Below are positions 46,689-64,000 of a DNA stretch of 64,000 nt, piece after piece (positions within the stretch are counted from its first letter, which is position 1; every line of letters begins with the position of its first letter). Position numbers and translations under genes: made by a program. The stretch is from Theionarchaea archaeon (GTDB lineage Archaea > Methanobacteriota_B > Thermococci > Methanofastidiosales > SZ-28-30). The notes under the pieces are model-generated. The model was not told the origin of the DNA and did not search any database. It was given only the letters and a program-made list of their open reading frames with translations. The stretch covers positions 36,712-100,711 of the forward strand of contig JACVGW010000001.1 of NCBI GenBank assembly GCA_018992565.1, given 5' to 3'.

Positions 46689-48323
46689 ATGGTAGAACCT
46701 GATGGTTCTGTTTACCTTGAAGTTGCCCTGCCACAGATACGACGACTGCTGGGACTGCAGGACAGAAATCCCGGTTCATCTACGTATGGATGCTTTGACC
46801 GCAGCTTCTGGCACTATAGGGTTCTCGATTTTGCAAATGGAAGGCAACAGGAAGCTGCCCTGACCCTTGCTCTCGCATATCACATATCCCACCCGCTGAA
46901 CCCTTATTTTGGTAAGGAAAAGATGAAACAGTGGTGTCTGGCAGCTCTTCAATTTTTGACAGCCATTCAAAATGGAGACGGCTCCTTCAATGAATACTAC
47001 CCCCATGAACATGCCTTTGTGACTACTGCCTTTGCAGCCTTTGCAGGTTCTGAGGCGCTGCTCCTGCTGAATGAAAAGCCTCCCAGCACGGTGGAGATGT
47101 TGACCAAATGTGGGAAGTTCCTGTTAAAAAGAGATGAACTTGAAGTGGTAAACCAGAACCTTGGAGCTGCTTCTGCATTGTATAACATCCACCTACTAAC
47201 TAATGAGGAGAAGTTCAAAAAAGGTGCTTACTCCAAGATCAAAACCTCTCTCGAATCACAGTCACCAGAAGGATGGTTTCATGAGTACGGAGGCCCCGAT
47301 ATTGGGTATCTCAGTGTGGCTGTCAGCTATCTTGCTCACTTCTACTACAAAACAAGAGATGCACAAGCTCTTGCCGGCCTCAAGAAGGCAGTAACATTCT
47401 TGTCACATTTCATTCATCCTGATGGCACCGCGGGAGGGGAATATGGATCCCGCAACACTTTCTACCTCATCCCTGATGGCATTGAAATCTGCGCCCAGGT
47501 CGATCCATGTGCCGGCTATCTGGCCCGGGAAATACGCACTTCTCTAGCCCGAAAAGGGTTCTCCCCTGCTGACTTGGATAATCGTTATCTCTGCAACATG
47601 CTGTACAACTACGTGCAGGCCTACAGAATGTGCAACCCTGTACGAGAGCACACGTCACCAGAACCAGTTCTCTACGAAGAATCAGGTCTTTTGGTGGAAA
47701 AAAGAGACCAGTATCACATGGTGACAAACCTCCGGAAAGGTGGTGTATTCAAAGTGTTTTGTCACGGGGAACTGGTAGCCTCTGACTGTGGGATTCTGGG
47801 AAGGCTTTCCGACGGGACCCTTGTTACCAGTCAATGGCTTGGAACCTCGTTTACCCGGAAGAGATCTGGTGGCAGTACTCAGTACGTGGTGACTGGGCAG
47901 TTGATGAAGGTGCCTGAGCAACAGATGACGCCGCTAAAAACCATGATCTTGAGAGGTTCTCTTACGATTGGACAGAAGTATGTATCTGATCTGGCAAAAA
48001 ACCTGCTGAGAAAGCAACTCATCACCCAAAAAAACGCTGTACCTCTCTTCTTTGAACGCCGGCTAACCCTGAGTAGTGATATTCATGTCACTGACAAATT
48101 GAGAGGAACGGGTGAATTCGCCATGTTGCACCTGGTGACAAATGCCTCACTGATATATGTTCCTTCTTCGCGCTATTTCCGGATTACTGAGCTGTCTACT
48201 CCGCTATATCTCACTGATGATCTTTCGGATCTTTTTAATACCAAAGGGGAATTAGTTCTTGAGCGGAATATCACCTGTGATACTTGGCAGTCTCCACTGC
48301 GTAACCCACCAGGAGCACATTGA
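46689..48323 (+). CDS. Hypothetical protein, possibly alpha/alpha-toroid fold, glycan-locus associated
   Basis: It has repeated aromatic/Gly segments (IQNGDGSFNEYYPHEHAF, SPEGWFHEYGGPDIGY, IHPDGTAGGEYGSRNTFY) reminiscent of toroid repeats. The assignment is weak. Confidence 0.35.
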   Translation: MVEPDGSVYLEVALPQIRRLLGLQDRNPGSSTYGCFDRSFWHYRVLDFANGRQQEAALTLALAYHISHPLNPYFGKEKMKQWCLAALQFLTAIQNGDGSFNEYYPHEHAFVTTAFAAFAGSEALLLLNEKPPSTVEMLTKCGKFLLKRDELEVVNQNLGAASALYNIHLLTNEEKFKKGAYSKIKTSLESQSPEGWFHEYGGPDIGYLSVAVSYLAHFYYKTRDAQALAGLKKAVTFLSHFIHPDGTAGGEYGSRNTFYLIPDGIEICAQVDPCAGYLAREIRTSLARKGFSPADLDNRYLCNMLYNYVQAYRMCNPVREHTSPEPVLYEESGLLVEKRDQYHMVTNLRKGGVFKVFCHGELVASDCGILGRLSDGTLVTSQWLGTSFTRKRSGGSTQYVVTGQLMKVPEQQMTPLKTMILRGSLTIGQKYVSDLAKNLLRKQLITQKNAVPLFFERRLTLSSDIHVTDKLRGTGEFAMLHLVTNASLIYVPSSRYFRITELSTPLYLTDDLSDLFNTKGELVLERNITCDTWQSPLRNPPGAH

Positions 48324-49254
48324 CGCTGGAGAGTAGAAAAGCCACTGTCAGGACAACATTCCACCATAACATCCCTGCCCCAGAAAGCCACGTGTATAAC
48401 GCATATAATCCGAAAAGCAAGCCGACAGAAAGCATTCCGAAAGAAATCATGCCGAAGAGTCGAAATGGCCTTTCACCTAGTGTTAAATCCATCTTCAACG
48501 CAACCATATCCATAATTCCGCACGGGATTCTCATAGCACCATATTTTGATTTTCCATTCAACCTCGGTAGATAATCGACAGACACTTCCGCAATGGTGCA
48601 GCCTTTGTCCTTGAGAAGGGGGAGTATGTACCGATGTTCATCCTTCTTGAGGTACAAGTCTCTGACCGCCTCCCTCCTGAATGCCTTGAATCCCAGATTA
48701 AACTGGTGCACGGGCAATGAAAACAGCCTCTGGCAGATACCATTATATATGAGCGAAGGAACAATCTTAGTTATTGGCTCTTTCTTTTTTCCCCATCCAT
48801 TCACTACATCGTACCCTCTCTCCAGTTTCTCTACCATCTTCGGTATATCTGCTGCCCGGAACTGTCCATCTCCATCCATCAAGATAACGTATTTTCCTTC
48901 TGCATGTTGAAATCCAGTCATCATAGCTGCAGTTTTTCCTTTGTTAACATCATGGACAAGTACCTTTACATGAGGATGATACCGGCTTTGCATGGCCTGG
49001 GCGATTTCCAATGTTCGGTCAGTGCTTCCATCATCTACCAGAATGATATCATATTCTGTCCCAAGCGGAATGAGAGTCTCTTCAAGATCCTCTACCACAC
49101 TTTGGACATTCTTCTCTTCATTATACAATGGAACAATCACAGACACGTGCTTTCCACCATCTACCACACCATCTTCCAAGCAGGTCACCTGAATTGTCAC
49201 CTCCTCTACGGGAGAGGTTGAATGTTGATAGAAAGAATCAATCCGTTTGGTCAT
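48271..49254 (-). CDS. Family-2 glycosyltransferase, polyprenyl-phosphate type (Dpm1/GtrB/ArnC-like) with two C-terminal TM helices
   Basis: VSVIVPLYNEEKNV...ILVDDGSTDRT...DGDGQF is followed by two hydrophobic C-terminal helices. Confidence 0.8.
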   Translation of the reverse strand: MTKRIDSFYQHSTSPVEEVTIQVTCLEDGVVDGGKHVSVIVPLYNEEKNVQSVVEDLEETLIPLGTEYDIILVDDGSTDRTLEIAQAMQSRYHPHVKVLVHDVNKGKTAAMMTGFQHAEGKYVILMDGDGQFRAADIPKMVEKLERGYDVVNGWGKKKEPITKIVPSLIYNGICQRLFSLPVHQFNLGFKAFRREAVRDLYLKKDEHRYILPLLKDKGCTIAEVSVDYLPRLNGKSKYGAMRIPCGIMDMVALKMDLTLGERPFRLFGMISFGMLSVGLLFGLYALYTWLSGAGMLWWNVVLTVAFLLSSVNVLLVGYAVETAKYHR

Positions 49255-49583
49255 CTTTCACCACCTCTAAGTATCTATACCCTCCCTTGAAACTATATAA
49301 ACTTTCCGGTTGAAGAACACATTCAAAATTCACCGTTACATCTCTTTCTTTTATTACTTTATTGAATCTTCTTCTGCACTTAAAGAAGAGGTTTATATAA
49401 GGTATCACTGTATCTAAAGCCACATCTTCTGGCCTTCCCCTGTTTAGTACGGTGTAACTACTTTCTATTGCTTTGTAAGATTGATCGATATTTCACATAT
49501 TCATTCCAGGTAAGGTAATGCCAGTGCCCACGAATGAGAACCCGTGAAGATGAGATGAGAAGTGAGGGATACCGCTACCAGAA

Positions 49584-50603
49584 TCAGAAGGTCTTTCCCA
49601 GTATTCTATACAGAAAGATGCAGGGATAGACGGCTGCATGGAGGAGAGGGTTTCTCACTTTGGCAAATCCATATGCATTCTGTCTCTTGCATCCTATTCT
49701 CTCCTTGAATTCATAGGTAGATACGCCGAAATAGATCCTCTTTTGACCTCTCTGTAACGCTTCTCGTATGGTTTCGTAATACAGGAGGAAGTAAGCATGA
49801 CACTCCCTGTAGCCTGGATCAATGCCCGGGTACTTTATGTGCACAGTGCCTCCTGAGTTGAGCCACAGCGCACATGCTATAGGCATATCCTCCTTTAGAC
49901 AGATGGCTAATTCTGCTCTGTCTTTGAGATGATTCTCCAGACCTTCATAGAATGATTCAGTAAGGAGCCAGCGAGGATCTTTGTGGCTCTGACAGGTGTA
50001 TCTCTGGAGTCTATGCGCAGTGTCTTTCCATTTCAAGAAATCATTGGTAAAGATGGTTCTCAGGTTCCACTTTTTTGCTGCTCTGTTCATGGTGATTCGA
50101 GCACTCCTCCGTGTAGTTGGATCTAAAGACGCCAAGTAGTCGTCAAAATCCTTATAGGGGAGGTCAAGATAAGTATCATCAGCAAGGGGGAAGCCCACAA
50201 ATCCCTTCATCTGAGGGCCTAACCATGAGAATTCATCCCTGGTGAGTTCTAACACGAGCATGCCTCTGGTTCGAGTGGTTCTCTGGATCTCAAGCAGAGT
50301 GTCCAGGAGCTGGTGAGTATGTTCGGGGGAAGGAGAATGAAATGCAGAAGTGACACCAAGAGGTGATCTCACCTCTAGAAAAGCCACTCTCGTGGAAAAA
50401 ATGGGTTCTCTAATAGGAGAGCAGCATGCAGCGGCCAGAAGGGCTCCTCCTTCTTGTATTGTCACGTAGGTGAGCTCTCTCATTCCAGACTCTTCCACTG
50501 CCCTGTACCATCCGTAGGAACGTTCTACATCCTCTGTTCCCACCAGGTATTCCCATTCTCTTTGATCTATGTCCTGGATGCTTTTGAGAATTCTTACTTC
50601 CAT
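49584..50603 (-). CDS. FemAB-like / BioF2-like GNAT-fold acyltransferase, paralogue 1
   Basis: N-terminal EWEYLVG...GWYRAVEESGMRELTYV. C-terminal ...GIDPGYRECHAYFLLYYETIREALQRGQKRIYFGVSTYEFKERIGCK. It is 339 aa. Confidence 0.6.
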   Translation of the reverse strand: MEVRILKSIQDIDQREWEYLVGTEDVERSYGWYRAVEESGMRELTYVTIQEGGALLAAACCSPIREPIFSTRVAFLEVRSPLGVTSAFHSPSPEHTHQLLDTLLEIQRTTRTRGMLVLELTRDEFSWLGPQMKGFVGFPLADDTYLDLPYKDFDDYLASLDPTTRRSARITMNRAAKKWNLRTIFTNDFLKWKDTAHRLQRYTCQSHKDPRWLLTESFYEGLENHLKDRAELAICLKEDMPIACALWLNSGGTVHIKYPGIDPGYRECHAYFLLYYETIREALQRGQKRIYFGVSTYEFKERIGCKRQNAYGFAKVRNPLLHAAVYPCIFLYRILGKTF

Positions 50604-51029: not shown

Positions 51030-51041
51030 AATTACAGCTGA

Positions 51042-51728
51042 TCACGGGTCTGGGCAACCATCGCACGTCTTCCCGCAGGTATCATCACATGTATATTCGC
51101 ACGTGTCTTCACATGTGTCTTCGCAGGTCCAGGGGCATGTAGGACCATCGCAGGTTGAAGGGCATGTCGCCTGGCACGTTGAACCACATGTATAACATGT
51201 CTGCTGACATCCTGTAGCATTACACGTCCATCCCTGACCCTGACAGGTCTCACACGTTGACGGACAGGTTACCACGCATGTTCCCATACATGTGAAAGCT
51301 GCAACGCACGTGTATCCGTCACACGAAAGGCTACACGTAAACTGAGTGCATGTCCACCAGTTCAGGCATGTGGCCAAACATGTGCTTCCTCCATGCGTAT
51401 ATCCCTCACAGGTCTGCGAGCACGTGTAGTACCCATGGCAGGTATAGTATCCGTAACAGGTTTCCAGTCCGGTGGTGCTCAAAATTTCGTCGTTGCAGCA
51501 ATCTGTGACCCCGCAATTCAGGCTACATCCCTGTTCAGCAGTATACATAAAGGCGTTTTGTTCAGTAGGTAGGAAATTCATTTTGTATGAAGCTTCTTCC
51601 ATTCTATAGGTATATAATGGCGTACTCAGGAATGGAGAATCGGCTGTCACAGCTGCAGCTGCAAGTACTACAGCAACGGTGCTGAACACCGCAATATATA
51701 GCATCTGTTTCTTTATTATGCTGGTCAC
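51042..51728 (-). CDS. Secreted Cys/Thr-rich repeat protein (about 34 Cys, mostly T-C dipeptides at 4-residue spacing)
   Basis: The Sec-type signal is KKQMLYIAVFSTVAVVLAAAAVTA. A Cys-free ~40-aa segment follows. The ~155-aa core is ...TCPSTCETC...TCYTCGSTCQATCPSTCDGPTCPWTCEDTCEDTCEYTCDDTCGKTCDGC. The start is ambiguous (GTG 51728, ATA 51719 or ATG 51704). Confidence 0.6.
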   Translation of the reverse strand: MTSIIKKQMLYIAVFSTVAVVLAAAAVTADSPFLSTPLYTYRMEEASYKMNFLPTEQNAFMYTAEQGCSLNCGVTDCCNDEILSTTGLETCYGYYTCHGYYTCSQTCEGYTHGGSTCLATCLNWWTCTQFTCSLSCDGYTCVAAFTCMGTCVVTCPSTCETCQGQGWTCNATGCQQTCYTCGSTCQATCPSTCDGPTCPWTCEDTCEDTCEYTCDDTCGKTCDGCPDP

Positions 51729-51747
51729 CTCCTTCTGGGCTCTGCTC

Positions 51748-52000: not shown

Positions 52001-53020
52001 TCAAAACGTTCTTCCCAAAAAGCCCAGACCCCACGCATATGACTTTAGTGCCAGTTGAAGAAGCGGGTTGTCCAATTTTACAAATCCAAAGACCTGTTCT
52101 CTCCTGCATCCGATCTTCTTCTTAAATTCGTAGGTTGTTGGGCCAAAATAGATCCTTTTCTGATTTCTCTGCAGTGCCTTTTTGATTCCCTCATAATACA
52201 TTACAAAATATGCCTGATATTCTTTATACCCGGGGTCAACTCCCGCAAGTTTGTGGACAGCCAGAATATCCGTGTTCAGAACAAGCCCGGATGCGATAGG
52301 AATATCATCCTTTGAACAAATGATCAGCTCAGCCTTGTCTTTGAGATGCCTCTCCAGGGCTTCATAAAATGCTTCTGTGAGGTGGCTTCTTGTAATACCA
52401 TGTTCCTCACATAAATAACCTCTGAGCCTGTGTGCCGTTTCTTTCCATTCTGAAAATTCGCTGGTAAAAGTGGTCGTCAGATTCCATCTTTTTTCCGCCC
52501 TGCTCAGTGTTTTTCGCACACTCCTCCGCGCACTTGCATCAAGAGAGCTCAGATAGTCATCGAAATCCGCGTAGTCCAGGTCAATGTAAGTATCATCCAG
52601 TATTTGTACAGGGTTGTATCCATTCATCTGTTCTCTCAGAAGTGCAACCTCTGTGTCTTTTAATTCAAGAACGAGGATTCCCTTCGCGTTAACTGCTTGC
52701 CTGATCTTTTCCAATTCCTTCAATAGCTGCGGGATATACTTCAGAGATGTAGAGAATAGTCCAGAGGCAGTACCGAAAGGAGAACGCACTTCTAAGAAGC
52801 GTATTTCAATGTTCAGCAATTCCTCTTCATAGGGGTAGCACGTTGCAGCAGCCACAAGACGCCCCTCCTCTTTAAGGAACACATAGTGCATGTCTCTCAT
52901 CCCGGAATCTTCAACCGCCCTGTACCACCCGGTTAATTTCCCTGCGTGCTCAGTTCCCACGAGACGTTCCCACTCTTCCTGCTCTACATCTGTGATAGTA
53001 TCTGATTGCACGATATCCAT
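52001..53020 (-). CDS. FemAB-like / BioF2-like GNAT-fold acyltransferase, paralogue 2
   Basis: It has the same conserved blocks (EWERLVG...GWYRAVEDSGMRDMHYVF...GVDPGYKEYQAYFVMYYEGIKKALQRNQKRIYFGPTTYEFKKKIGC). The start was moved to ATG 53020, after AGGTGATTCA. This gives 339 aa, as in paralogue 1. Confidence 0.6.
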   Translation of the reverse strand: MDIVQSDTITDVEQEEWERLVGTEHAGKLTGWYRAVEDSGMRDMHYVFLKEEGRLVAAATCYPYEEELLNIEIRFLEVRSPFGTASGLFSTSLKYIPQLLKELEKIRQAVNAKGILVLELKDTEVALLREQMNGYNPVQILDDTYIDLDYADFDDYLSSLDASARRSVRKTLSRAEKRWNLTTTFTSEFSEWKETAHRLRGYLCEEHGITRSHLTEAFYEALERHLKDKAELIICSKDDIPIASGLVLNTDILAVHKLAGVDPGYKEYQAYFVMYYEGIKKALQRNQKRIYFGPTTYEFKKKIGCRREQVFGFVKLDNPLLQLALKSYAWGLGFLGRTF

Positions 53021-53327
53021 TGAATCACCTGTATGGTCCTCATCCTCCGCGGACACTTTTCATCTGAGTAAAAACAGAACCATTTAAGAGTTTTGTGATG
53101 CGGTAGCTTCTCATTTCACATTTGTGTCTGAATATCCCTTTTCTGCCTTTTACTACGTTGTCAATATCAGATGGATCGTGTTCTCCGATTCGAGACCACA
53201 TACGTACATGATCGAAGGAAAACTACTTTTGAGATCATGGTAGCTTTCCTGTATTGAAGCTGTCCCTCTCAATTATAGTGGCTCCTGGCGCTGAAATTGC
53301 GAATTGGAGTGATGAGGTGACAGCCTA

Positions 53328-56742: not shown

Positions 56743-57581
56743 TGTTTCACCCCGATTATTGAGAAATTCCACGAAATCAAAGCAGGTTCAGTCTTGATTC
56801 CTAGTGAATATGGTTCAAAGACACTGTATAATTCTCTATCTGTGAAGACATGCAAATACTTCTCAGATATGAAATACAGGTCACGTATTTCTGCCAAAGT
56901 GGGGACTTTCTTTCTTCGGAGAGTAAATCTCGTGAGATGCAAAATGAATTTGACAATTCTTGCGGATTTCCCCATTGTATGCGAAAAGGGGTTATAGGAA
57001 AGCAGGGCCAGCCCGCTCAACACGAAGAATGCGCCTGCCAACAGAGGGGAGAAAATAAACCCTGCAACACCCAGAATCCCGCACCCTAGAGAACTTGCAG
57101 ACCACAGCACAAGATGCCCCCTGTTCCGCAGCTCTTTAGCGACGAAAGAACCTCCTTTCTTCAGCACTCTGTCTATTTCCTTGATAGTCCCTTCAAGGAC
57201 CTCTTCCGGTATCACAGACAAGAAGTAATCAGATAACACAAAATCAAAGCTTCCATCTTCAAAGGGGAGGTAGTCTCCCCTGCAGCAGATCACCTCGTTC
57301 CCTCTGGAAATGGCCATTTCCAGCATGCCAGGGGAGAGATCGATGCCACATACCCACGCCTGAGGCTTGAATTGCTTGATCAGCTCCATGAAGGACCCAT
57401 TCGTCACTCCCATCACCAAGATGCGGGATGTCTCATCGGGTATGAGACTGTTGTAGTAGGAGTCCCAGGCCCACTGTGGGTTTACTGTGGCAATGTCTTT
57501 CCAGTACCTGGATGCGACCTCCCAGTACACTGCCTGGGGCTGTTCAGCTAAGGGGGCTTTAGATGCCAAGTTTTTTCCCAA
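56739..57581 (-). CDS. Methyltransferase-like protein with C-terminal TM helices
   Basis: A class I MTase-like core (ILVMGVTNGS...CGIDLSPGML...FDFVLSDYFL...LKKGGSF) is followed by two hydrophobic helices. Motif I is atypical. Confidence 0.5.
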   Translation of the reverse strand: MGKNLASKAPLAEQPQAVYWEVASRYWKDIATVNPQWAWDSYYNSLIPDETSRILVMGVTNGSFMELIKQFKPQAWVCGIDLSPGMLEMAISRGNEVICCRGDYLPFEDGSFDFVLSDYFLSVIPEEVLEGTIKEIDRVLKKGGSFVAKELRNRGHLVLWSASSLGCGILGVAGFIFSPLLAGAFFVLSGLALLSYNPFSHTMGKSARIVKFILHLTRFTLRRKKVPTLAEIRDLYFISEKYLHVFTDRELYSVFEPYSLGIKTEPALISWNFSIIGVKQ

Positions 57582-58254
57582 TCCGCTCTCCCCACCTATC
57601 GAGAGGGGCCAGATTTAGAAGGACAACCAGCACCATGAAGGCAGCGAACCAGTACACCAGTTCATGCATCAAGGGATCCCTTCCCAAGAAATAGGATACA
57701 TGATAGACCCAAGAAGCAACCTCCGAATAGGGGAATCCCCATCTCAGGTGGAATATAGTCTGGAAGATGAAGATGTTGAGGCAGGAGAAGTAGACGAGCA
57801 GCCCTGAAAACACGATCTTCAATGTTTTTGCTGTAGACCCACCACCCATTCTGAAGGCCAGTGATACACCAAATATGATGGATGGAAACAACATGACATA
57901 GAACGCGTTCCACAATTCGTTGATGAAGTAGTGTCGATCCTGGTTGAACTCTGGAATGAATGTCTCTTCAAAGGCTTCATCCGGATAGGTTCCGAACCAT
58001 CCCCACGACAGAGCATTCTCATAAGGCACCAGGAATGCAAAGAGCAGCAAGACAATCAGAATGTACTTATATTTCCAGGTGTTGGGAAAAAACGCAACAG
58101 CAAGTCCCATGAATATCAAAGCAAAAAGCTTGGGCAGAAAGACACCCAGGGATATAACCTCTCTGGTATGTGGCGTAAATAACAGCATGTACCCTCCTAT
58201 GGATACTGCCAGGATTCCGAATATGAGCCATAACCATTTTCTGATAGGCAACAT
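57559..58254 (-). CDS. Polytopic membrane protein, function unknown
   Basis: 231 aa with about six hydrophobic helices. It is the first gene of the minus-strand run and overlaps the next gene by 23 nt. Confidence 0.5.
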   Translation of the reverse strand: MLPIRKWLWLIFGILAVSIGGYMLLFTPHTREVISLGVFLPKLFALIFMGLAVAFFPNTWKYKYILIVLLLFAFLVPYENALSWGWFGTYPDEAFEETFIPEFNQDRHYFINELWNAFYVMLFPSIIFGVSLAFRMGGGSTAKTLKIVFSGLLVYFSCLNIFIFQTIFHLRWGFPYSEVASWVYHVSYFLGRDPLMHELVYWFAAFMVLVVLLNLAPLDRWGERIGKKLGI

Positions 58255-58674
58255 AGATTCACCTCAGCCTTTCTCTCAAAGTGAGTTTATAAACTTTTCC
58301 ATGTTGATAACTGAGATATGCTGCTTTTTGAGATTTTCCGAAAGGGAATTTCCTTCAATGTGGTTTTTTGAACAGACCAGTAGATTTCTGCGTACATTAC
58401 GGGTGGGTCACTGGTATCCAGACACTCCAGGAAATGCTGGCAATAGCCCAGGGTCTGTTTGTCAATCTAGTCAGCTTTGGCGCCACCTAGACTTTTTCTG
58501 CAAATTACAGAGATGATCTCTGGATGGATGGACATACCTGGCTGACTCCACACTCCAAGCTTCAGGATAACCTTTAAGACTGCATAAACAAAGTAATTGT
58601 ATCCAGATACTACCTTGAATTGAACGTCATGCAGAGGTGATTCAATAAGAGTACGCCGAGCTACCCTTGAAGAT

Positions 58675-59403
58675 GTGGTAAAATTTCACCTGTTATTTAA
58701 AAAGGCATACTGTAATCACTCGCTATATCACGTCAGAACTCCAGAATTCTACCAGCAGCTCTTGATCAAGAGACCTAATGTCGGACTGAAGAACATTCTA
58801 GTAGCAGAGAGAGAAAATGGGCTGACAGGATTTGCGGCATTCGGAGTCAAAGACCTTGGCTCTGCAACGATTATTTCTATCTACGAAGTGTCAACCACGG
58901 ATGAAGAGTCATTTCATGCCCTGATGTCTGGAATTCAGCACATTGGAACAGAGAAAAGATGTGCCTACCTGGAAACAATGGCCCCTCCACAGGGCAACCT
59001 CGCCTCCCAGCTGACTGAAGAGGGGTATTCAAGGATCAAGGATATGATTACCATGGGTTACCCCATTACGGTCAGGAGAATTCTCAACCTCTTTGTTGAA
59101 AGAGCTCTCTCAAAGGGAATGTTCAGAAAGAATGTAAAGATAGCTTTTGATGTTAATGGGGAGCATATCGTTCTCACACTGCCTGAAGGCACGCTTGAGA
59201 ATGGAACTGAGGGGGACCTGTTGATTCAGACTTCTGCGTGCGTATTGCTGGAACTCCTCTTCAGGAGAGCTGGAATCTTAATATCACTCATCAAGGGAAA
59301 AGTGGTCGTAAGGCCGTTGCGATGTATAGTGTCTGCTCGTGAAGTGATTGAGTACCTGGCCGAAGAAGTAAGAGCAATTACTCCCTACACGGAATTGACT
59401 TGA
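58675..59403 (+). CDS. GNAT-type acetyltransferase with possible SCP2-like C-terminal domain (Eis-like)
   Basis: The open frame upstream of GTG 58675 encodes IRVRRATLEDV, a typical GNAT N-terminus. GAGGTGA + 4 nt precedes an ATA codon at 58645, so the true start may be a mutated or non-canonical codon. Confidence 0.45.
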   Translation: MVKFHLLFKKAYCNHSLYHVRTPEFYQQLLIKRPNVGLKNILVAERENGLTGFAAFGVKDLGSATIISIYEVSTTDEESFHALMSGIQHIGTEKRCAYLETMAPPQGNLASQLTEEGYSRIKDMITMGYPITVRRILNLFVERALSKGMFRKNVKIAFDVNGEHIVLTLPEGTLENGTEGDLLIQTSACVLLELLFRRAGILISLIKGKVVVRPLRCIVSAREVIEYLAEEVRAITPYTELT

Positions 59404-59528: not shown

Positions 59529-60806
59529 ATGCATAGAATTCAAAAATGGATCCTCGTAGTGACAATTTCTTCAATTATGGTAATCTCAGGTATTTCCAGC
59601 GCTTCTGTTGTGAGAGAATCCCAGATAACTACCAATACTAACACTCAATGGCGTCCTTCCGTCTGGGGGAAGTACATTGTGTGGCAGGATCAGAGAAATG
59701 GGAATGCTGATATCTATGGCTATGATCTTACAACGGGGGCTGAATTCTCTATATGCACTAATGTATTCAACCAGGAACACCCTTCAATATATGGAAGTAC
59801 TGTTGTTTGGTATGACTGGAGAAATGGAAATGCTGATGTCTACGGATACGACCTCTCCACAGGAACTGAGTTTCCCATCTGCACCAATGTAAATAATCAA
59901 CGCCTGCCCATAATCTATGGTACATATGTCGTGTGGAACGACTGGAGGAATGGCAACTGGGATATCTACGGATACGACCTCTCCACAGGAACTGAGTTTC
60001 CCATCTGCACCAATACTGCCCACCAGTATTTTCCCAATGTGGGTAGCGGAATAGCAGTTTGGTGGGATGAGAGAAACGGCATTGGCAACTGGGATATCTA
60101 CGGATATGATATATCTACAGGGACAGAATTCCCGATTTGCCTGAATCCAGGTAACCAGGGATATCCTGTGACCCACAACAATGTGGTGGCATGGATTGAT
60201 GACCGAAATGGCAACTGGGATATCTACGGATATGATGTATCTACAGGGACAGAATTTCCTGTATGCACCAATACCTCTGACCAGTTCCGTCCGTGGGTCT
60301 TCAACGATGTCATTGTGTGGTTTGATATGCGGAATGGAAACCAGGACATTTATGGATATCAAATGTCAAGCGGTACAGAATTCCAGATTACAACCAACAC
60401 AGGCGACCAGAGACATCCCAAGATCCAGTGCAACTATGTAGTATGGCATGACAGGAGAGATGGAAACTACAACATATACCTTGCTGAGCTAGACATCAAT
60501 GAATGCGGAGGACAACCTACATTCCTTTATCGTCCCGTGGACTACAATAGTCCGATGAGGTCTCTTGCTTCAACGCGAATTTCGGAAGTGCAGGGATTAC
60601 TGGAAGAACTGCAGAATACGTGTGAAAAACTGAAAGAGAATGATGATCCTCTGTACGAGAGATGCTGCGTGGACAGACTGGACGAAGCACAAAAGTACCT
60701 GGAGAAGGCTGAGACGTTATTCATGAGCGGTAACTACATTGCGGCAAACTACTGGGCACTCAAGGCATTGGAAATCCTGCAGGAAGCCAAAGACTGCTGC
60801 TCATAA
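59529..60806 (+). CDS. Secreted protein with about 6.5 tandem 42-aa beta-propeller-type repeats and helical C-terminal domain
   Basis: It has a signal peptide. Repeats follow W.D.RNGN.DIYGYDLSTGTEFPICTN...Q..P......VVW. SD AGGAGG lies 7 nt upstream of the ATG. Confidence 0.65.
   Translation: MHRIQKWILVVTISSIMVISGISSASVVRESQITTNTNTQWRPSVWGKYIVWQDQRNGNADIYGYDLTTGAEFSICTNVFNQEHPSIYGSTVVWYDWRNGNADVYGYDLSTGTEFPICTNVNNQRLPIIYGTYVVWNDWRNGNWDIYGYDLSTGTEFPICTNTAHQYFPNVGSGIAVWWDERNGIGNWDIYGYDISTGTEFPICLNPGNQGYPVTHNNVVAWIDDRNGNWDIYGYDVSTGTEFPVCTNTSDQFRPWVFNDVIVWFDMRNGNQDIYGYQMSSGTEFQITTNTGDQRHPKIQCNYVVWHDRRDGNYNIYLAELDINECGGQPTFLYRPVDYNSPMRSLASTRISEVQGLLEELQNTCEKLKENDDPLYERCCVDRLDEAQKYLEKAETLFMSGNYIAANYWALKALEILQEAKDCCS
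59839..60014 (+). repeat. Intragenic tandem repeat with a perfect 50-nt copy at 126-nt offset
   Basis: TCTACGGATACGACCTCTCCACAGGAACTGAGTTTCCCATCTGCACCAAT occurs at 59839-59888 and again at 59965-60014. A second near-identical pair lies at 60084-60130 and 60210-60256. Confidence 0.85.
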
Positions 60807-61095
60807 TAAATCCTTCTTTTTCTCTTTCATCATATTTACGGCTTCTATTTACATTGTTAATTCTCGGATATCTGTGTGTCAGCTCTATTGTTGGTTTACC
60901 CGTGTGTGGAACGTAATGTGATACTGCTTTGTTCTCCCTTATCATTCATATGATAGACATCACAATACCTTGCTCGCATCTGGACAGCACAGGTTCTTCT
61001 CTGCCTCCTAATTACTGCCCATGGCTCAAAAATACAGTCAATCCATGAATTGAAAACAAACATTTTTAAGCATTACTCAAGTTAAGGTGATCCAC

Positions 61096-62364
61096 ATGCT
61101 TCCCAGAATGGTATTGTACGGACTAAAAGCCTATGCAATGCAGTGGAAATCTCCCAGAGCTATCGAGAAATTCCAAGAGAAAGAGCTGAGGTACATTGTA
61201 TCTCATGCATACAGGAACTCCTCCTTCTACAGACACAAATTCAGAGAACATGGAGTAGGGCCCGATGATATACAGACAATTGATGACTTGAGGAAGTTGC
61301 CAACTGTGAGCAAGAGAGAACTCATTGACAACTTCTCTGACGTGATAAGCAAGGGATTCAGAGAAGAAGCCTGCACAGTGGAGTCTACTTCTGGTTCTAC
61401 AGGAGAAAACATGACAATCCTCCATGACCAGAGAGCTATTGACTACTACGCTCCCGCTCACATTCGAGGACACTTGGCCGTAGGGTTGAGACCCCAGTAC
61501 AAGACAGCATACATACGGTACAAGTCCATGGGGCCGAGCCTCATTGAGAGGCTTGGATTTTTCAGATTCTGCCACATTCCATCAGATCTCCCTCCAGCAG
61601 CCATCATTGAGCGCATGAAGGAAATCAAAGCCTTCGCCATAAATTGCTATCCAAATACCATGTACCTGATTGCAAAGGAAATATCTCAGGAAGATGCTGA
61701 ATATCTGTCACCTCATCACATAGTGACCTGGTCGGAGAAACTCACTCCAAGGATTAGAAAGACTGTTGAGGAAACCTTTGGCTGCCCTGTGTACGATCAG
61801 TACGGTGCTTTTGAGTGTCATTCCATCGCATTTGAATGTAAGGAAAAAAGAATGCATATCAATGCGGATGTTTTGATAATGGAGTTTCTGAAAGACGGAG
61901 AACCTGTGGCTCCGGGAGAGCGAGGCGAGATAGTCATCACCAATTTATGGGACAGGGCAATGCCGTTCATTCGATACAGAATCGGAGACATCGGAGGACC
62001 ATCAGATGAAACATGCGAATGTGGCCGCGGGCTGCCATTGATGGAGGAACTTGAAGGACGCACAGACGATTCTCTGGTGACTGTTTCAGGAAAGCCAGTC
62101 TTACCCAGTATCGTTGTTCCAATCTTCTTTCCTTACCCTGAAATAGACGCCTTCCAAGTAGTCCAGGCGACAAAAAAAGATATACGAATCAAGATCGTGA
62201 AGGGAAAAAACTACAGAGAAGACATTGACAGGGAAATTCTCCGGAAATTCAGAGATATTTTTGGTGATGAACCTGATATTCGCATAGAATACGTAGAAGA
62301 AATCAAGAAGACACCGGGAGGCAAACTGCGGTGTATTGTGAGCGAGGTGCCTCAATGCTTCTGA
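61096..62364 (+). CDS. Phenylacetate-CoA ligase / CapK / F390-synthetase-like adenylate-forming enzyme, paralogue 1
   Basis: The N-terminus is ...HAYRNSSFYRHKFREHGVGPDDIQTIDDLRKLPTVSKRELIDN, with STSGSTGE and RYRIGDIG...CECGRGLP. The ATG follows AGGTGATCCAC. Confidence 0.7.
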   Translation: MLPRMVLYGLKAYAMQWKSPRAIEKFQEKELRYIVSHAYRNSSFYRHKFREHGVGPDDIQTIDDLRKLPTVSKRELIDNFSDVISKGFREEACTVESTSGSTGENMTILHDQRAIDYYAPAHIRGHLAVGLRPQYKTAYIRYKSMGPSLIERLGFFRFCHIPSDLPPAAIIERMKEIKAFAINCYPNTMYLIAKEISQEDAEYLSPHHIVTWSEKLTPRIRKTVEETFGCPVYDQYGAFECHSIAFECKEKRMHINADVLIMEFLKDGEPVAPGERGEIVITNLWDRAMPFIRYRIGDIGGPSDETCECGRGLPLMEELEGRTDDSLVTVSGKPVLPSIVVPIFFPYPEIDAFQVVQATKKDIRIKIVKGKNYREDIDREILRKFRDIFGDEPDIRIEYVEEIKKTPGGKLRCIVSEVPQCF

Positions 62365-63638
62365 ATTTGCCATATCACGTCTTGATGGCACTGAAGAACC
62401 AGTACGCCAGCCCAGAGTACTTGAAAAAATGGCAGCAAAAACGCTTGAAACACATGATAGAACATGCCTACAGGAACACTCGGTTCTACCACCAGAAATT
62501 CAGAGAGGCAGGGATACATCCTCATGACATTCAAGGATTGAGCGACATGCAGAAGATCCCTCTCATCAGCAAGGATGAAGTGCGCAACCAAGGTGCTGAT
62601 TCACTGGTGGCACAGGGATACGATGAAAGGAATTGCGAAGTCCACTACACCTCAGGATCTTCGGGGAAGATGCTGAGAATACTGTATGACTCTGAAAATC
62701 ATCTGTATGAGAGTGCTATTGCATACCGATACCACCTGGGCCAGGGAGTGAGACCATGGCACAGATACTACCTCATTCTTCACGATGAGAAAGAGCTCCA
62801 GGATACTCGAAAGAGGTCAATCTTGCATCGAACCATGGGTGTCGCAGGGGACCTGCCTGATGAAGAAAAAATCAGACTTGCTCAGGACTACAACCCCCAT
62901 GTAATGGGAGGACACCTTTCCAGCCTCATTTCCATGGGAAAGATAATGGAAACCCAACAGATAGACAGCATACGACCCAGAATTTTGATTGTAGGAGGAG
63001 AATTGTCACTTCCTGCTCATCGGAGATATGTTGAGCGCGTTTTTGGAGGAGCTACCTACGACAAGTATGGTGCTTTTGAGGTAAAATCAATTGCTTGGGA
63101 ATGCCGGCACCACACTATGCATATGGATGCAGATTCTGTGATGGTAGAGTTCCTGAAAGATGGAGAACCTGTTGCTCCTGGGGAGCGAGGTGAGGTGGTG
63201 GTGACCAGTTTGTGGAATAAGGCTATGCCCTTCATCCGGTACAGACTGGGGGATATTGGAGTACCGTCTGACAAGGTCTGCGAATGCGGGAGGACTCTTC
63301 CTGCAATGGAGATTATTGAAGGGAGACTGGATGACTTCATCGTCCTTCCTTCAGGAGCTTTTATCCCGCCTGGAGCTGTGGTGCCCCTGTTTCTTTCTGT
63401 GACGCAGGTCGATCAATTCAAAATAGTGCAGGACAAGAAAGACTCAATCAGGGTACAGATCAGGCCGGGTCAGGGATACACTCACGAAATAGAACAGGGG
63501 TTAATTCAGAAAATGAAGGAGGTTCTGGGCGAACCTGTTCATATTGATGTTGAACACGTTGAAAGCATTGAGCAGATAGCCAGAGGCAAATTCAGAGCCG
63601 TCATCTCTCACGTTGGCGTAGATTTATCACATCTGTGA
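62355..63638 (+). CDS. Phenylacetate-CoA ligase / CapK-like adenylate-forming enzyme, paralogue 2
   Basis: HAYRNTRFYHQKFREAGIHPHDIQGLSDMQKIPLISKDEV, TSGSSGK and RYRLGDIG...CECGRTLP are present. The ATG follows GAGGTGCCTCA and overlaps paralogue 1 by 10 nt. Confidence 0.7.
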   Translation: MLLNLPYHVLMALKNQYASPEYLKKWQQKRLKHMIEHAYRNTRFYHQKFREAGIHPHDIQGLSDMQKIPLISKDEVRNQGADSLVAQGYDERNCEVHYTSGSSGKMLRILYDSENHLYESAIAYRYHLGQGVRPWHRYYLILHDEKELQDTRKRSILHRTMGVAGDLPDEEKIRLAQDYNPHVMGGHLSSLISMGKIMETQQIDSIRPRILIVGGELSLPAHRRYVERVFGGATYDKYGAFEVKSIAWECRHHTMHMDADSVMVEFLKDGEPVAPGERGEVVVTSLWNKAMPFIRYRLGDIGVPSDKVCECGRTLPAMEIIEGRLDDFIVLPSGAFIPPGAVVPLFLSVTQVDQFKIVQDKKDSIRVQIRPGQGYTHEIEQGLIQKMKEVLGEPVHIDVEHVESIEQIARGKFRAVISHVGVDLSHL

Positions 63639-63779
63639 ATGAGAAAGTTGTTCTGAGATGTTCTCAAAGCACGAAAAATTAGATTCATTCGTCGAAAAAC
63701 GTCAAATAAACACTATTTCCTTCTGTAGCACTTTAGGCTGATCTGATGGAAGGAAAAGTTTATTAGTTCTCATCAACTC

Positions 63780-64000
63780 ATGTTTGTTATGTTCCTGAAA
63801 GATCTGTATTACCTGGGAAATTCATGGAGGACTCCCAGAAAGCCGTTTCACACTGTGGAAAAATATCAGCTCAAGATGTTAAAGGCTGCAGTGCGACATG
63901 CCTATAGACATTCAGCTTTTTACCATGAGAAGTTCAGGAGAGCAGGAGTTGGTCCAGAGGACATTACCTGTCTGAAGGACATTGAAAAGCTCCCTTTCAC
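63780..64000 (+). CDS. Phenylacetate-CoA ligase / CapK-like adenylate-forming enzyme, paralogue 3 (3' end outside the window)
   Basis: My own translation is MFVMFLKDLYYLGNSWRTPRKPFHTVEKYQLKMLKAAVRHAYRHSAFYHEKFRRAGVGPEDITCLKDIEKLPF. It is open to the window end and has the same N-terminal pattern as the two upstream genes. Confidence 0.6.
   Translation, partial: MFVMFLKDLYYLGNSWRTPRKPFHTVEKYQLKMLKAAVRHAYRHSAFYHEKFRRAGVGPEDITCLKDIEKLPF

What the first reader, a model, noticed from the sequence alone, without database searches (positions are those of the whole stretch)
46689..64000. 17-kb surface-decoration island resembling bacterial exosortase-type EPS loci, with heavy paralogue expansion
Seen: the genes are contiguous. 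They are a toroid-like hypothetical, a polyprenyl-phosphate GT2, four FemAB-like acyltransferases, a Cys-rich secreted protein, a polysaccharide deacetylase, a membrane-anchored methyltransferase-like protein, a polytopic membrane protein, a GNAT, a secreted propeller-repeat protein and three PaaK/CapK-like adenylating enzymes. Ten of these genes run on the minus strand from 58254 to 48271. Known: in bacteria, FemAB-related proteins, this deacetylase subtype and CapK-like ligases co-occur in PEP-CTERM/exosortase-associated exopolysaccharide loci. Inference: this is an archaeal pathway that attaches activated carboxylates or amino acids (3 ligases x 4 transferases) to a lipid-linked glycan or to secreted proteins. 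The enzyme multiplicity suggests combinatorial or variable decoration. No flippase, oligosaccharyltransferase or archaeosortase is visible in the window.
Basis: partly seen in the sequence, partly recalled or inferred. Interest (0 to 1): 0.6.

Follow-up and report, generated by a model that had tools for sequence, protein, structure and literature searches.

The report
Archaeal amino-acid sugar-decoration gene cluster
An uncultured sediment archaeon (Theionarchaea) has a native gene cluster of about 23 kb with four Fem-type transferases and five CapK-type ligases. It most likely hangs amino acids or short peptides on a membrane-bound surface sugar, a chemistry shown in bacteria and, as far as I know, unstudied in archaea.

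Summary
The genes are real, contiguous and carry the stated domains. There are three corrections:
- Nine, not ten, genes lie on the minus strand.
- The "GNAT" is supported only at fold level.
- The cluster does not end at the window. A 99.9 %-identical conspecific contig joins it to another contig of this genome, giving five tandem CapK-like ligases.

The organism is a Theionarchaeon. This Fem-like clade occurs only in its genus and this CapK-like clade only in its family. The genome holds 11 ligases and 8 Fem-like genes, all old paralogues (26-54 % identity). Codon usage is native, so this is not a recently acquired island.

None of the proteins reaches the cut-offs of the exosortase/PEP-CTERM families, and no exosortase was found. 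Paralogues elsewhere sit beside a Wzx flippase, a Wzy-like polymerase and a second deacetylase. The genome also encodes WecB/WecC, which make UDP-ManNAcA.

Best reading (0.6): two independent amide-forming chemistries act on a lipid-linked amino-uronic sugar.
- A deacetylase plus Fem-like transferases, as in VimE/VimA of Porphyromonas.
- CapK-like ligases, as in VpsH of Vibrio.

This is a new variant of a known kind, notable for its archaeal host and extreme enzyme multiplicity. No chemistry has been shown.

The parts
46674..48323 (+). g01, a cytoplasmic (alpha/alpha)-toroid + beta-sandwich protein. Gene callers start it at ATG 46689 (544 aa). Candidate uronate C5-epimerase- or lyase-like enzyme.
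   Evidence: No Pfam or NCBIfam hit locally. AF2 pLDDT 90.7. Best Foldseek PDB hits are uronate polysaccharide lyases (chondroitin AC, hyaluronate, heparin, alginate, ulvan and PL33 lyases) and dermatan-sulfate epimerase, TM 0.44-0.55. No signal peptide. Homologues at 33-43 % identity occur in bacteria and archaea. All 3 contexts examined have a GT2 and a UDP-sugar 6-dehydrogenase within a few kb; in two the GT2 is adjacent or one gene away.
48271..49254 (-). g02, a GT2 glycosyltransferase of the polyprenyl-phosphate-sugar synthase type (like ArnC, AglJ, PgfS).
   Evidence: PF00535 120 bits. Best NCBIfam hits are ArnC 110, PgfS 108 and AglJ 97 bits, all far below their cut-offs. Two C-terminal TM helices.
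49584..50603 (-). Fem1, FemAB-like (double-GNAT) transferase.
   Evidence: PF04339 57 bits, PF13480 51 bits. TIGR03019 only 29 bits. 51 % identical to Fem2. Forms its own subclade, sister to that of Fem2.
51042..51728 (-). Secreted Cys-rich (Thr-Cys repeat) protein. Probably a passenger rather than a pathway enzyme.
   Evidence: Signal-type N-terminus and 34 Cys. No family hit. Six or more paralogues lie elsewhere in the genome, away from Fem and ligase genes. Absent from the syntenic cluster of the sister species.
52001..53056 (-). Fem2, FemAB-like transferase.
   Evidence: PF04339 53 bits, PF13480 45 bits, PF02388 33 bits. Orthologue at 78-80 % identity in the sister species. RNA contigs at 99-100 % identity from two metatranscriptomes lie at 52729-52998.
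53328..54326 (-). Fem3, FemAB-like transferase, the most divergent of the four.
   Evidence: PF13480 39 bits, PF04339 38 bits. Deep, separate branch in the family tree.
54834..55868 (-). Fem4, FemAB-like transferase. The frame is open from ATA 55868-55866. The first canonical start is ATG 55730.
   Evidence: PF04339 52 bits. The upstream 46 codons are collinear with the sister orthologue, which begins MDGGDPTEIVQ where this genome reads IPGGDPTEIVQ. An RNA contig lies at 54959-55128.
55966..56772 (-). g08, a cytoplasmic NodB/CE4-type polysaccharide deacetylase with a DUF3473 C-terminal domain.
   Evidence: PF01522 41 bits; DUF3473 27.8 bits, just under its 29.6 cut-off. TIGR03006 73 bits against a cut-off of 276. 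Overlaps the methyltransferase gene by 34 nt.
56739..57581 (-). g09, a class I SAM methyltransferase anchored by two TM helices.
   Evidence: Methyltransf_11 58.5 bits, Methyltransf_25 53 bits. TM helices at about 158-187. Overlaps g10 by 23 nt.
57559..58254 (-). g10, a 6-TM membrane protein of unknown family. First gene of the g10-g09-g08 overlapping unit.
   Evidence: No family hit. Six predicted TM helices. Conserved in the sister species.
58645..59403 (+). g11, an orphan protein with an N-terminal GNAT-like fold. ATA 58645 stands where four homologues begin with Met. The first canonical start is GTG 58675.
   Evidence: No Pfam or NCBIfam hit. Only 5 protein clusters known; the two that carry a name are from Theionarchaea. 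AF2 is confident only for residues 1-106, which show GNAT topology. The top 50 Foldseek hits are nearly all GNAT acetyltransferases. Start codon comparison.
59529..60806 (+). g12, a secreted beta-propeller repeat protein with a ~90-aa Cys-containing C-terminal module.
   Evidence: TIGR04275 310 bits, 7 repeats. Signal-type N-terminus. A protein of the same size sits at the same position in the sister cluster. The C-terminal module is shared at 42 % identity with only one other protein, the Peptidase_C11-like protein beside the second Fem/ligase cluster (family from the sister orthologue). Highest RNA contig coverage in the region.
61087..62364 (+). Lig1, CapK/PaaK-like adenylate-forming ligase.
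   Evidence: PaaK models 126-153 bits against cut-offs of 646-700. PF27533 CapK_C is on record for the conspecific gene at this position. Best PDB relatives are PaaK structures (run with Lig2).
62331..63638 (+). Lig2, CapK/PaaK-like ligase. Belongs to the subgroup that has one member at each of the five ligase loci.
   Evidence: 79 % identical to its orthologue in the sister species.
63780..64000 (+). Lig3, N-terminus of a third CapK-like ligase. It runs off the window and the contig. In the conspecific contig L100 it is 430 aa and is followed by a CxxCxxCC protein and two more ligases, which correspond to own-genome C79:27290-30724.

Best explanation
The cluster is a native, lineage-specific glycan-tailoring locus of Theionarchaea, about 23 kb long. 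It covers window 46674-64000 and about 6 kb more, most of it on contig C79. It most likely decorates a membrane-bound (polyprenyl- or dolichyl-phosphate-linked) N-acetyl-amino-uronic sugar with amino acids or short peptides on the cytoplasmic side.

Proposed steps (all inferred; no chemistry has been shown for any of these proteins):
1. WecB and WecC, encoded on contig C121, supply UDP-ManNAcA or a related sugar.
2. The two-TM GT2 (g02) puts a sugar on the lipid carrier. Its conserved partner g01, which has a uronate lyase/epimerase fold, acts at C5 of a uronic acid.
3. The NodB-type deacetylase (g08) frees the 2-amino group. It is made from one overlapping gene unit with the membrane-anchored methyltransferase g09 and the 6-TM protein g10.
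4. The four Fem-like transferases each add a particular aminoacyl residue to that amine, or to the growing chain. The donor is probably aminoacyl-tRNA. This follows the VimE/VimA model.
5. The five CapK-like ligases use ATP to amide-link amino acids or amines to carboxylates, either C6 of the uronate or a peptide C-terminus. This follows the VpsH model.
6. g09 methylates, and the GNAT-like g11 may cap an amine.
7. A Wzx-like flippase (C21), a Wzy-like polymerase (C49) and AglB enzymes (C30, C43) encoded elsewhere export and deliver the product.

The deeply diverged paralogues imply different specificities. The differing gene counts between species imply lineage-variable decoration.
For: **Domains and topology**
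- Domain assignments.
- The Fem-like proteins, the ligases, the deacetylase and g01 have no signal peptide and no clear membrane helix; only the methyltransferase is membrane-anchored. The GT2 has 2 C-terminal TM helices.
- g10, g09 and g08 overlap.

**g01**
- It has a uronate lyase/epimerase fold.
- All 3 homologue contexts examined have a GT2 and a UDP-sugar dehydrogenase within a few kb, plus AglB or a PMT_2 GT-C enzyme in two of them.

**Supply and export genes in the same genome**
- WecB (323 bits, above cut-off) and a WecC-like dehydrogenase (TIGR03026, 438 bits).
- AglB genes.
- Paralogue loci: a Wzx-type flippase with a distant Fem-like gene, 3 ligases, a GNAT and a Fem. In that cluster the last ligase, the GNAT and the Fem overlap by 4 nt. 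Also PF01901 polymerase + Fem, HGSNAT-like + distant Fem, and a second PDA/DUF3473 with a hexapeptide acetyltransferase and, about 6 kb away, an 836-aa polytopic protein beside a ligase.

**Conservation and specificity of the association**
- Synteny with the sister species.
- Both families expand only in this lineage: 11/8/5 ligases and 7/5/4 Fem copies (profile hits) in the three species of the genus; an eighth, partly masked Fem-like gene lies on C21 here.
- None of 80 generic PaaK loci has a Fem-like neighbour; a single-sequence search also found no relative of this deacetylase or of g01.
- CapK_C (PF27533) is on record for the five ligases of conspecific contigs that are 99.9 % identical in DNA.
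- RNA contigs lie on Fem2, Fem4 and g12.

**Experimental precedents**
- VimE (CE4) plus VimA (TIGR03019-related) make 2-N-seryl or 2-N-glycyl uronic 'linking sugars', and VimA sets the amino acid (PMC7468200).
- VpsH, a PaaK/CapK-like protein, is required for glycine amidation of GulNAcA on a lipid-linked disaccharide (PMC13463779).
- Archaeal N-glycans carrying threonine-amidated mannuronic acids exist (PMC11407970).
- A deacetylase lies next to a FemAB-related gene in a bacterial PEP-CTERM locus (PMC3684757).
Against: - No enzyme of these clades has been assayed.
- The donor of the Fem-like proteins is unknown (aa-tRNA or acyl-CoA/acyl-AMP). By sequence they are only marginally related to FemA (E 0.16 against PDB).
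- No tRNA gene lies in the window.
- The acceptor sugar is not encoded in the cluster. WecB/WecC lie on another contig, with no proven link.
- Several ligase pairs (C113, C138) sit without any Fem gene, so the ligases may serve other targets.
- Two cluster genes (Fem4, g11) carry ATA where orthologues have ATG, so they may be weakly expressed or decaying.
- g10 and the C-terminal half of g11 remain unassigned.
- A nucleotide-sugar substrate rather than a lipid-linked one is not excluded.
Confidence: 0.6

Rival explanations
1. Coupled donor-acceptor scheme. The CapK/PaaK-like ligases activate diverse carboxylic acids as acyl-AMP or acyl-CoA. The Fem-like double-GNAT proteins then transfer those acyl groups to the amine freed by the deacetylase, giving N-acyl diversification of one amino sugar.
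For: - Both families expand together and only in this lineage: 11/7, 8/5 and 5/4 copies.
- In the C21 cluster a ligase, a GNAT and a Fem gene overlap by 4 nt.
- GNAT-fold enzymes commonly use acyl-CoA (own knowledge).
- The ligases score best against CoA-ligase models.
Against: - The Fem-family enzymes that I know to be characterised use aminoacyl-tRNA (own knowledge). VimA installs Ser or Gly, and no partner ligase is described for it.
- The one CapK-like protein with genetic and MS data, VpsH, is needed for glycine amidation of a sugar carboxylate.
- Ligase pairs or singles on C113 and C138 have no Fem neighbour.
- Copy numbers are not 1:1: 5 ligases and 4 Fem genes here.
Confidence: 0.2
2. 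The enzymes build a soluble peptide-type small molecule, such as a peptidyl-sugar or nucleoside-like secondary metabolite, rather than a cell-surface glycan.
For: - tRNA-dependent Fem-like transferases and ATP-dependent amide ligases also occur in antibiotic pathways (own knowledge).
- Earlier notes report radical-SAM modified-peptide cassettes elsewhere in this genome.
- No oligosaccharyltransferase or flippase lies inside the cluster itself.
Against: - The cluster has a polyprenyl-P-type GT2 with TM helices, a membrane-anchored methyltransferase and a polysaccharide deacetylase.
- g01 homologues consistently sit in glycan loci.
- Paralogues lie beside a Wzx flippase and a Wzy-like polymerase.
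- No exporter, NRPS, PKS or precursor peptide is linked to the cluster.
Confidence: 0.08
3. A true archaeal counterpart of the bacterial exosortase/PEP-CTERM EPS system. The Fem-like and deacetylase genes would be members of the XrtA-associated families, working with an archaeosortase.
For: - The best NCBIfam hits of the Fem-like proteins and the deacetylase are the XrtA-associated models.
- The deacetylase-Fem adjacency mirrors PEP-CTERM loci.
- An earlier, untested note reports a propeller-fused archaeosortase and a Cys-containing C-terminal sorting tail in this genome.
Against: - Scores are 27-31 bits against 260, and 73 bits against 276.
- No PF09721 match in the genome, although that model missed Haloferax in the control and is therefore insensitive.
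- None of the other XrtA-associated markers I recall (EpsI-type asparagine synthase, ACP, FadD-like ligase; own knowledge) is in the cluster.
Confidence: 0.05
4. The adjacency has no functional meaning: unrelated expanded gene families happen to lie side by side.
For: - The Fem genes are separated by 270-500 bp spacers with no shared upstream motif.
- The Cys-rich gene between them is a species-specific insert.
Against: - The order is conserved in the sister species.
- A second locus repeats the Fem+ligase+GNAT combination.
- The negative control of 80 PaaK loci shows no such neighbours.
Confidence: 0.04

Closest known systems
Wbp/Vim 'linking sugar' pathway of Porphyromonas gingivalis and Tannerella forsythia: VimE (CE4 deacetylase) plus VimA (TIGR03019-related transferase) (PMC7468200)
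   Same: - A CE4/NodB deacetylase gene lies directly next to a FemAB-like (PF04339/PF13480, TIGR03019-related) transferase gene.
- The predicted logic is the same: remove the 2-N-acetyl group of an N-acetyl-amino-uronic sugar, then add an amino acid whose identity is set by the transferase.
   Different: - Four transferases instead of one.
- Archaeal host.
- The proteins score only 27-31 bits on TIGR03019.
- No WbpB/E/D genes and no sortase have been identified.
- The role of the product, as a protein anchor or otherwise, is unknown.
VpsH of the Vibrio cholerae VPS pathway, a PaaK/CapK-like protein required for glycine amidation of GulNAcA on a lipid-linked disaccharide; with VpsA/B (WecB/WecC) and VpsJ (PMC13463779)
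   Same: - CapK/PaaK-like adenylate-forming enzymes sit inside a glycan locus.
- The genome encodes WecB/WecC.
- A non-canonical alpha/alpha-toroid protein (g01) may play a role like the proposed C5-epimerase VpsJ.
   Different: - Five tandem ligases here (11 in the genome) against one in VPS.
- g01 resembles lyases and dermatan-sulfate epimerase, whereas VpsJ is reported to resemble GlcNAc 2-epimerase.
XrtA/PEP-CTERM-associated EPS genes (TIGR03019 FemAB family, TIGR03006 deacetylase)
   Same: - These are the best-scoring curated models.
- Same domain architecture (Polysacc_deac_1 + DUF3473; double GNAT).
- Same deacetylase-Fem adjacency (PMC3684757).
   Different: - Scores lie far below the curated cut-offs.
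- No exosortase and no PEP-CTERM context.
Methanococcus N-glycans with threonine-amidated (di)acetamido-mannuronic acid (PMC11407970)
   Same: They show that archaeal surface glycans do carry amino acids amide-linked to uronic acids made through WecB/WecC-type chemistry.
   Different: - Those glycans carry a single amino acid.
- I could not verify the responsible enzyme in the literature available here.
- I know of no Fem-like enzymes in that pathway.
Staphylococcal FemX/FemA/FemB (aa-tRNA-dependent peptidyl transferases acting on lipid II)
   Same: - Same superfamily: PF02388 hits of 22-33 bits.
- Paralogues act on a lipid-linked precursor at the cytoplasmic face.
- A conserved 'Y-x-F-K-x-K-I-G-C' motif lies near the C-terminus. 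From memory it resembles the Fem 'FK' motif; this was not tested.
   Different: - Only marginal sequence similarity (E 0.16 to FemA).
- No coiled-coil insert.
- The acceptor is not peptidoglycan.

Membership tests
XrtA/PEP-CTERM-associated FemAB family (TIGR03019) | Score at or above the curated cut-off of 260.35 bits | tested here: not met
   27.3-31.3 bits for all four paralogues.
XrtA/PEP-CTERM-associated FemAB family (TIGR03019) | Occurs in a genome and locus with an exosortase and PEP-CTERM proteins | tested here: inconclusive
   No PF09721 match in the own genome, but the model rang in only 1 of the archaeal controls. An earlier, untested note mentions a fused archaeosortase.
XrtA system polysaccharide deacetylase (TIGR03006) | Score at or above 276.2 bits | tested here: not met
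   73.1 bits. The Polysacc_deac_1 + DUF3473 architecture is shared, with DUF3473 just under its cut-off.
Pfam FemAB_like (PF04339) / Acetyltransf_6 (PF13480) | Score above the gathering thresholds (27 and 22 bits) | tested here: met
   PF04339 38-57 bits and PF13480 36-51 bits for all four.
Fem aminoacyl-tRNA-dependent transferases (FemX/A/B, PF02388) | Sequence membership (cut-off 24 bits) and use of aminoacyl-tRNA as donor | tested here: inconclusive
   PF02388 gives 32.8 bits for Fem2, 24.1 for Fem1, and 22.2-22.4 for Fem3 and Fem4. FemA in PDB matches only at E 0.16. Donor use cannot be tested with these tools.
Phenylacetate-CoA ligase PaaK (TIGR02155 / NF041878) | Score at or above 646-700 bits | tested here: not met
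   96-153 bits for ligases 1-5.
CapK-like ligases (Pfam PF27533 CapK_C) | Match to the CapK_C model | tested here: met
   Precomputed unmarked hits (E <= 1e-5) for all five ligases of conspecific contigs L100 and L101, which are 99.9 % identical in DNA to this genome. The model is absent from the local Pfam copy, so this rests on the precomputed table.
Polyprenyl-phosphate sugar synthases of GT2 (ArnC, AglJ, PgfS, DPM type) | GT2 catalytic domain followed by C-terminal TM helices; equivalog cut-offs | tested here: inconclusive
   The architecture is met (PF00535 120 bits; 2 TM helices). Equivalog cut-offs are not met: 97-110 bits against 325-529.
Wbp/Vim linking-sugar pathway | Adjacent CE4 deacetylase and VimA-like transferase, plus the Wbp genes for a 2,3-diacetamido uronic acid, plus a sortase-type attachment enzyme | tested here: inconclusive
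   The adjacency is met (g08 next to Fem4). WecB and a WecC-like dehydrogenase are present. WbpB/E/D were not searched. No sortase was identified.
GNAT acetyltransferases (for g11) | GNAT fold with the acyl-CoA-binding R/Q-x-x-G-x-G/A motif | tested here: inconclusive
   No Pfam hit. The N-terminal fold and nearly all of the top 50 Foldseek hits are GNAT. The motif is not evident in the sequence. The model is of low confidence beyond residue 106.
Uronate polysaccharide lyases / GAG C5-epimerases (for g01) | (alpha/alpha)-toroid + beta-sandwich fold, with the catalytic Tyr/His/Asn set | tested here: inconclusive
   The fold is met with TM 0.44-0.55. Catalytic residues were not mapped. Invariant H47, Y205, Y212 and N160 exist in the family alignment, but their positions in the cleft were not checked.

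The most novel reading that the evidence does not exclude
Theionarchaea may use their many Fem-like transferases (8) and CapK-like ligases (11), together with the Wzx- and Wzy-like genes beside some of them, to build a true glycopeptide on a lipid carrier: a peptide-bearing amino-uronic glycan assembled without Mur ligases.

Such a product could serve in one of two ways:
- As a peptide-linked wall or sheath polymer.
- As an aminoacyl 'linking sugar', like that of the type IX secretion system, to which secreted proteins are covalently anchored. Candidates are the propeller protein and the C11 peptidase that share a C-terminal module, or proteins with the Cys-containing C-terminal tail noted earlier in this genome.
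Probability: 0.12. Interest if true: 0.85.

Novelty: new variant of a known kind. Interest (0 to 1): 0.5.

Why it matters
Amino-acid decoration of surface sugars has only recently been tied to genes in bacteria: VimA/VimE in 2020 and VpsH in 2026. As far as I know, no archaeal Fem-like or CapK-like enzyme has been studied.

This cluster is a compact natural library: four diverged Fem-like and five diverged CapK-like enzymes, with a deacetylase, a methyltransferase and a carrier-lipid glycosyltransferase. Expressing and assaying them could help define the specificity rules of both enzyme families.

The cluster also predicts that an abundant, cosmopolitan sediment archaeon carries an unusually peptide-rich surface glycan. 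The same DNA is found in at least 20 sediment, estuary, mangrove and soil-labelled metagenome runs from six studies. That glycan would bear on cell-envelope evolution, phage and predator recognition, and organic-matter chemistry in sediments.

Tried and rejected
1. **Metagenome scan with the Lig3 N-terminus.** It was meant to extend the cluster. The back-translated patterns hit only generic PaaK genes (<= 31 % identity over the full match), so it failed for that purpose. The loci were reused as a negative control. The extension came instead from an exact look-up of Lig2.
2. **Genome-contig scan with the Fem alignment.** Only 4 loci, from two Theionarchaea-type MAGs. No wider distribution was seen.
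3. **Literature searches.** A search for 'CapK'/'F390' was mostly noise but did surface the VPS paper. Searches for AglU/MMP1084, my recollection of the Methanococcus threonine-attachment gene, found nothing usable, so I make no claim on it.
4. **PF27533 as a genome search family.** The model is not in the local library.
5. **PDB sequence searches with Fem2 and with the Fem profile.** No significant match.
6. **Upstream regions and regulatory scans.** Aligning the regions upstream of the four Fem genes showed no shared motif. The bacterial promoter/terminator scan gave counts equal to shuffled sequence.
7. **g11 against the GNAT of the C21 cluster.** Not detectably homologous.
8. **Isoelectric points of the Fem-like proteins as a hint of tRNA binding.** Values range from 5.3 to 9.0 and are uninformative.
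9. **My first idea that Fem4 starts at ATC behind a perfect Shine-Dalgarno sequence.** Rejected: GGAGGTGATCC encodes the conserved GGDP of the N-terminus, and the orthologue's ATG aligns with ATA.
10. **Recent horizontal transfer.** Rejected on codon usage and GC.

Full report
**1. Observation**

Open frames at the stated places were listed. Pfam and NCBIfam scans confirm the following:
- A GT2 (48271-49254, minus strand; PF00535 120 bits).
- Four FemAB-like proteins (49584-50603, 52001-53056, 53328-54326, 54834-55730; PF04339 38-57 bits, PF13480 36-51 bits).
- A NodB-type deacetylase with DUF3473 (55966-56772).
- A class I methyltransferase (56739-57581).
- A propeller-repeat protein (59529-60806; TIGR04275 310 bits).
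- Three PaaK/CapK-like ligases (61087-62364, 62331-63638, and 63780 onward).

A hydropathy scan gives:
- Two C-terminal TM helices in the GT2.
- Two TM helices after the methyltransferase domain.
- Six TM helices in the 231-aa protein at 57559-58254.
- Signal-type N-termini in the Cys-rich protein (34 Cys) and in the propeller protein.
- No signal peptide and no clear membrane helix in the Fem-like proteins, the deacetylase, the ligases or g01.

I count nine solid minus-strand genes, not ten.

**2. The two unassigned proteins**

*g01 (46674-48323).*
- It has no local family hit.
- It has 443 homologues in bacteria and archaea; the 120 listed are 33-84 % identical.
- With a 30-sequence alignment it models at pLDDT 90.7.
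- Foldseek against PDB returns uronate-specific polysaccharide lyases and human dermatan-sulfate epimerase, with TM 0.44-0.55.
- In a Firmicute, a methanogen and a Nitrospirae bacterium its homologue has a GT2 and a UDP-sugar 6-dehydrogenase within a few kb. AglB is also present in Methanocalculus, and a PMT_2 GT-C enzyme in the Nitrospirae.

- It is an orphan family: 5 clusters, and the two that carry a name are from Theionarchaea.
- Only residues 1-106 model confidently. They have GNAT topology, and nearly all of the top 50 Foldseek hits are GNAT acetyltransferases.

**3. Extent of the cluster**

- The window is C68:36712-100711 of a 2.8-Mb, 154-contig MAG. The contig ends 407 b after the window.
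- An exact look-up of Lig2 found contigs of conspecific MAGs. L100 is 99.9 % identical to C68 up to 100915, and from position 12600 onward to the reversed end of contig C79.
- The order beyond the window is Lig3 (430 aa), a CxxCxxCC protein, Lig4 and Lig5. Then come an APS-kinase-family protein, an APH-like kinase and S-adenosylhomocysteine hydrolase.
- The left border (Alba, FTCD, YjeF) is shared with the sister species.
- The cluster therefore spans about 23 kb and holds four Fem-like and five CapK-like genes.

**4. Organism and distribution**

- Named homologues come from Theionarchaea or Methanofastidiosia MAGs.
- A profile of the Fem clade matches only the 3 genomes of the own genus among 61 genomes of the class, with 7, 5 and 4 copies.
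- Ligases of this clade (>230 bits) occur only in the own family, with 11, 8, 5 and 1 copies.
- An exhaustive HMMER search shows a tight clade, then a drop to about 120 bits for the general PF04339 family.
- The paralogues are old: ligases share 26-54 % identity and Fem proteins 41-51 %. In a tree of more than 100 environmental sequences they sit in separate subclades.
- The sister species has two Fem genes, and no Cys-rich gene, where this genome has four Fem genes and one Cys-rich gene.
- GC and codon usage are those of the genome.
- The DNA recurs in at least 20 sediment, estuary, mangrove and soil-labelled metagenome runs from six studies.
- RNA contigs at 99-100 % identity lie on Fem2 (two runs), on Fem4 (a run from another study) and on the propeller gene. 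DNA carry-over in these libraries cannot be excluded.

**5. Paralogue loci in the same genome**

- C21: a distant FemAB_like gene, a Wzx-type flippase (Polysacc_synt_3 89 bits), three ligases, a GNAT and a Fem. The last ligase, the GNAT and the Fem overlap by 4 nt. The same set is present in the sister species.
- C49: a PF01901 'O-antigen polymerase' (162 bits) next to a Fem gene.
- C84: an HGSNAT-like membrane acetyltransferase next to a distant Fem-like gene.
- C138: a second PDA+DUF3473 with a hexapeptide acetyltransferase and, about 6 kb further on, an 836-aa polytopic protein beside a ligase.
- C113: a ligase pair.
- Elsewhere in the genome: two to three AglB genes, a WecC-like nucleotide-sugar dehydrogenase followed by WecB, and no PF09721 exosortase (that model is insensitive).
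- As a control, 80 generic PaaK-like metagenome loci (0.8 Mb) contain no Fem-like gene. A single-sequence search also found no relative of this deacetylase or of g01.

**6. Mechanism**

Shown by the sequence analysis:
- The domains, the membrane topology and the overlapping g10-g09-g08 unit.
- The conserved synteny and the repeated link with glycan export genes.

Inferred from experimental precedents:
- A CE4 deacetylase followed by a TIGR03019-related transferase makes a 2-N-aminoacyl uronic sugar, and the transferase sets the amino acid (VimE/VimA; PMC7468200).
- A PaaK/CapK-like protein is required for glycine amidation of a uronic acid on a lipid-linked disaccharide (VpsH; PMC13463779).
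- Archaeal N-glycans do carry threonine-amidated mannuronic acids (PMC11407970).

I therefore read the cluster as two independent amide-forming toolkits working on one lipid-linked N-acetyl-amino-uronic sugar.
- Fem-like enzymes act on the amine freed by g08.
- CapK-like ligases act on carboxylates.
- Methylation (g09), possible C5 chemistry (g01) and possible N-capping (g11) complete the tailoring.
- Export uses the Wzx, Wzy-like and AglB genes encoded elsewhere.

The donor of the Fem-like enzymes, the acceptor sugar and every specificity are untested.

**7. Comparison with known families**

- No protein meets the cut-offs of the XrtA/PEP-CTERM equivalogs or of PaaK.
- They do meet the Pfam superfamily models. 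The ligases also carry precomputed CapK_C hits on the conspecific contigs, which are 99.9 % identical in DNA.
- Earlier notes of this scan report Fem + CapK + NodB modules in many bacterial polysaccharide loci. The module type is therefore widespread.
- What is unusual here is the archaeal host, the restriction of both clades to one lineage, and the multiplicity.

**8. Verdict**

- This is a new variant of a known kind.
- Interest is moderate (0.5). It would be much higher if the product proves to be a true glycopeptide polymer or a protein-anchoring sugar.

Noticed in passing
window 55866-55868 (minus strand) and 58645-58647 (plus strand): Two genes of the cluster, Fem4 and g11, have ATA exactly where the sister-species orthologues have the ATG start. 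For g11, all four known homologues start with Met. Both frames stay open and conserved upstream of the next canonical start. Either ATA initiates translation here or both genes are being silenced.
   Followed up: partly
window 60537-60806; own genome C21:30890-31168: The last ~90 residues of the propeller protein form a Cys-containing module with the motif GNYIAANYWAL. It is shared at 42 % identity with only one other protein in the genome, the secreted Peptidase_C11-like protein that lies beside the second Fem/ligase cluster. It could be a docking or acceptor module tied to the glycan.
   Followed up: partly
window 51042-51728: The Thr-Cys-repeat secreted protein has at least six paralogues on other contigs (C8, C30, C55, C67, C111, C125), one of them next to another propeller protein. 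It is absent from the sister species' cluster. A conspecific assembly carries a 220-aa version instead of 228 aa.
   Followed up: partly
own genome C68 end / C79 end (beyond window 64000): Contigs C68 and C79 are neighbours, with C79 reversed and about 0.55-0.75 kb missing inside ligase 3. Assemblies of this species and its sister repeatedly break at the propeller repeats or at the ligase paralogues.
   Followed up: yes
ligase loci C68, C79, C21, C113, C138: One ligase subgroup (C68b, C79a, C21a, C113a, C138; 43-53 % identical to each other) has one member at each of the five loci. At four of them it lies next to a ligase of another subgroup. This hints at a two-enzyme unit.
   Followed up: no
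L100:12745-13182 (= own C79:30215-30724) and L100:16176-19096: A CxxCxxCC (PF03692) metal-binding protein sits between ligases 3 and 4. The right flank holds an APS-kinase-family protein (88 bits), an APH-like kinase and SAH hydrolase. These may or may not belong to the pathway (sulfation, phosphorylation, SAH recycling).
   Followed up: no
own genome C138:39001-47126: A second PDA+DUF3473 deacetylase, a hexapeptide acetyltransferase, a TldD/E-sized gene pair that I did not annotate, an 836-aa polytopic membrane protein with no Pfam hit (possibly a GT-C) and a lone CapK-like ligase. This may be another tailoring or transfer locus.
   Followed up: partly
window 60109-60177: One metatranscriptome contig replaces 67 nt inside the propeller repeats with 67 other letters. 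This suggests repeat-level variants of this gene in the population.
   Followed up: no
own genome C21:~16800-18250: Runs of N (masked or scaffold gaps) interrupt the gene just upstream of the distant Fem-like gene and the N-terminal half of that gene, so its full length could not be read here. The sister orthologue is 358 aa.
   Followed up: no
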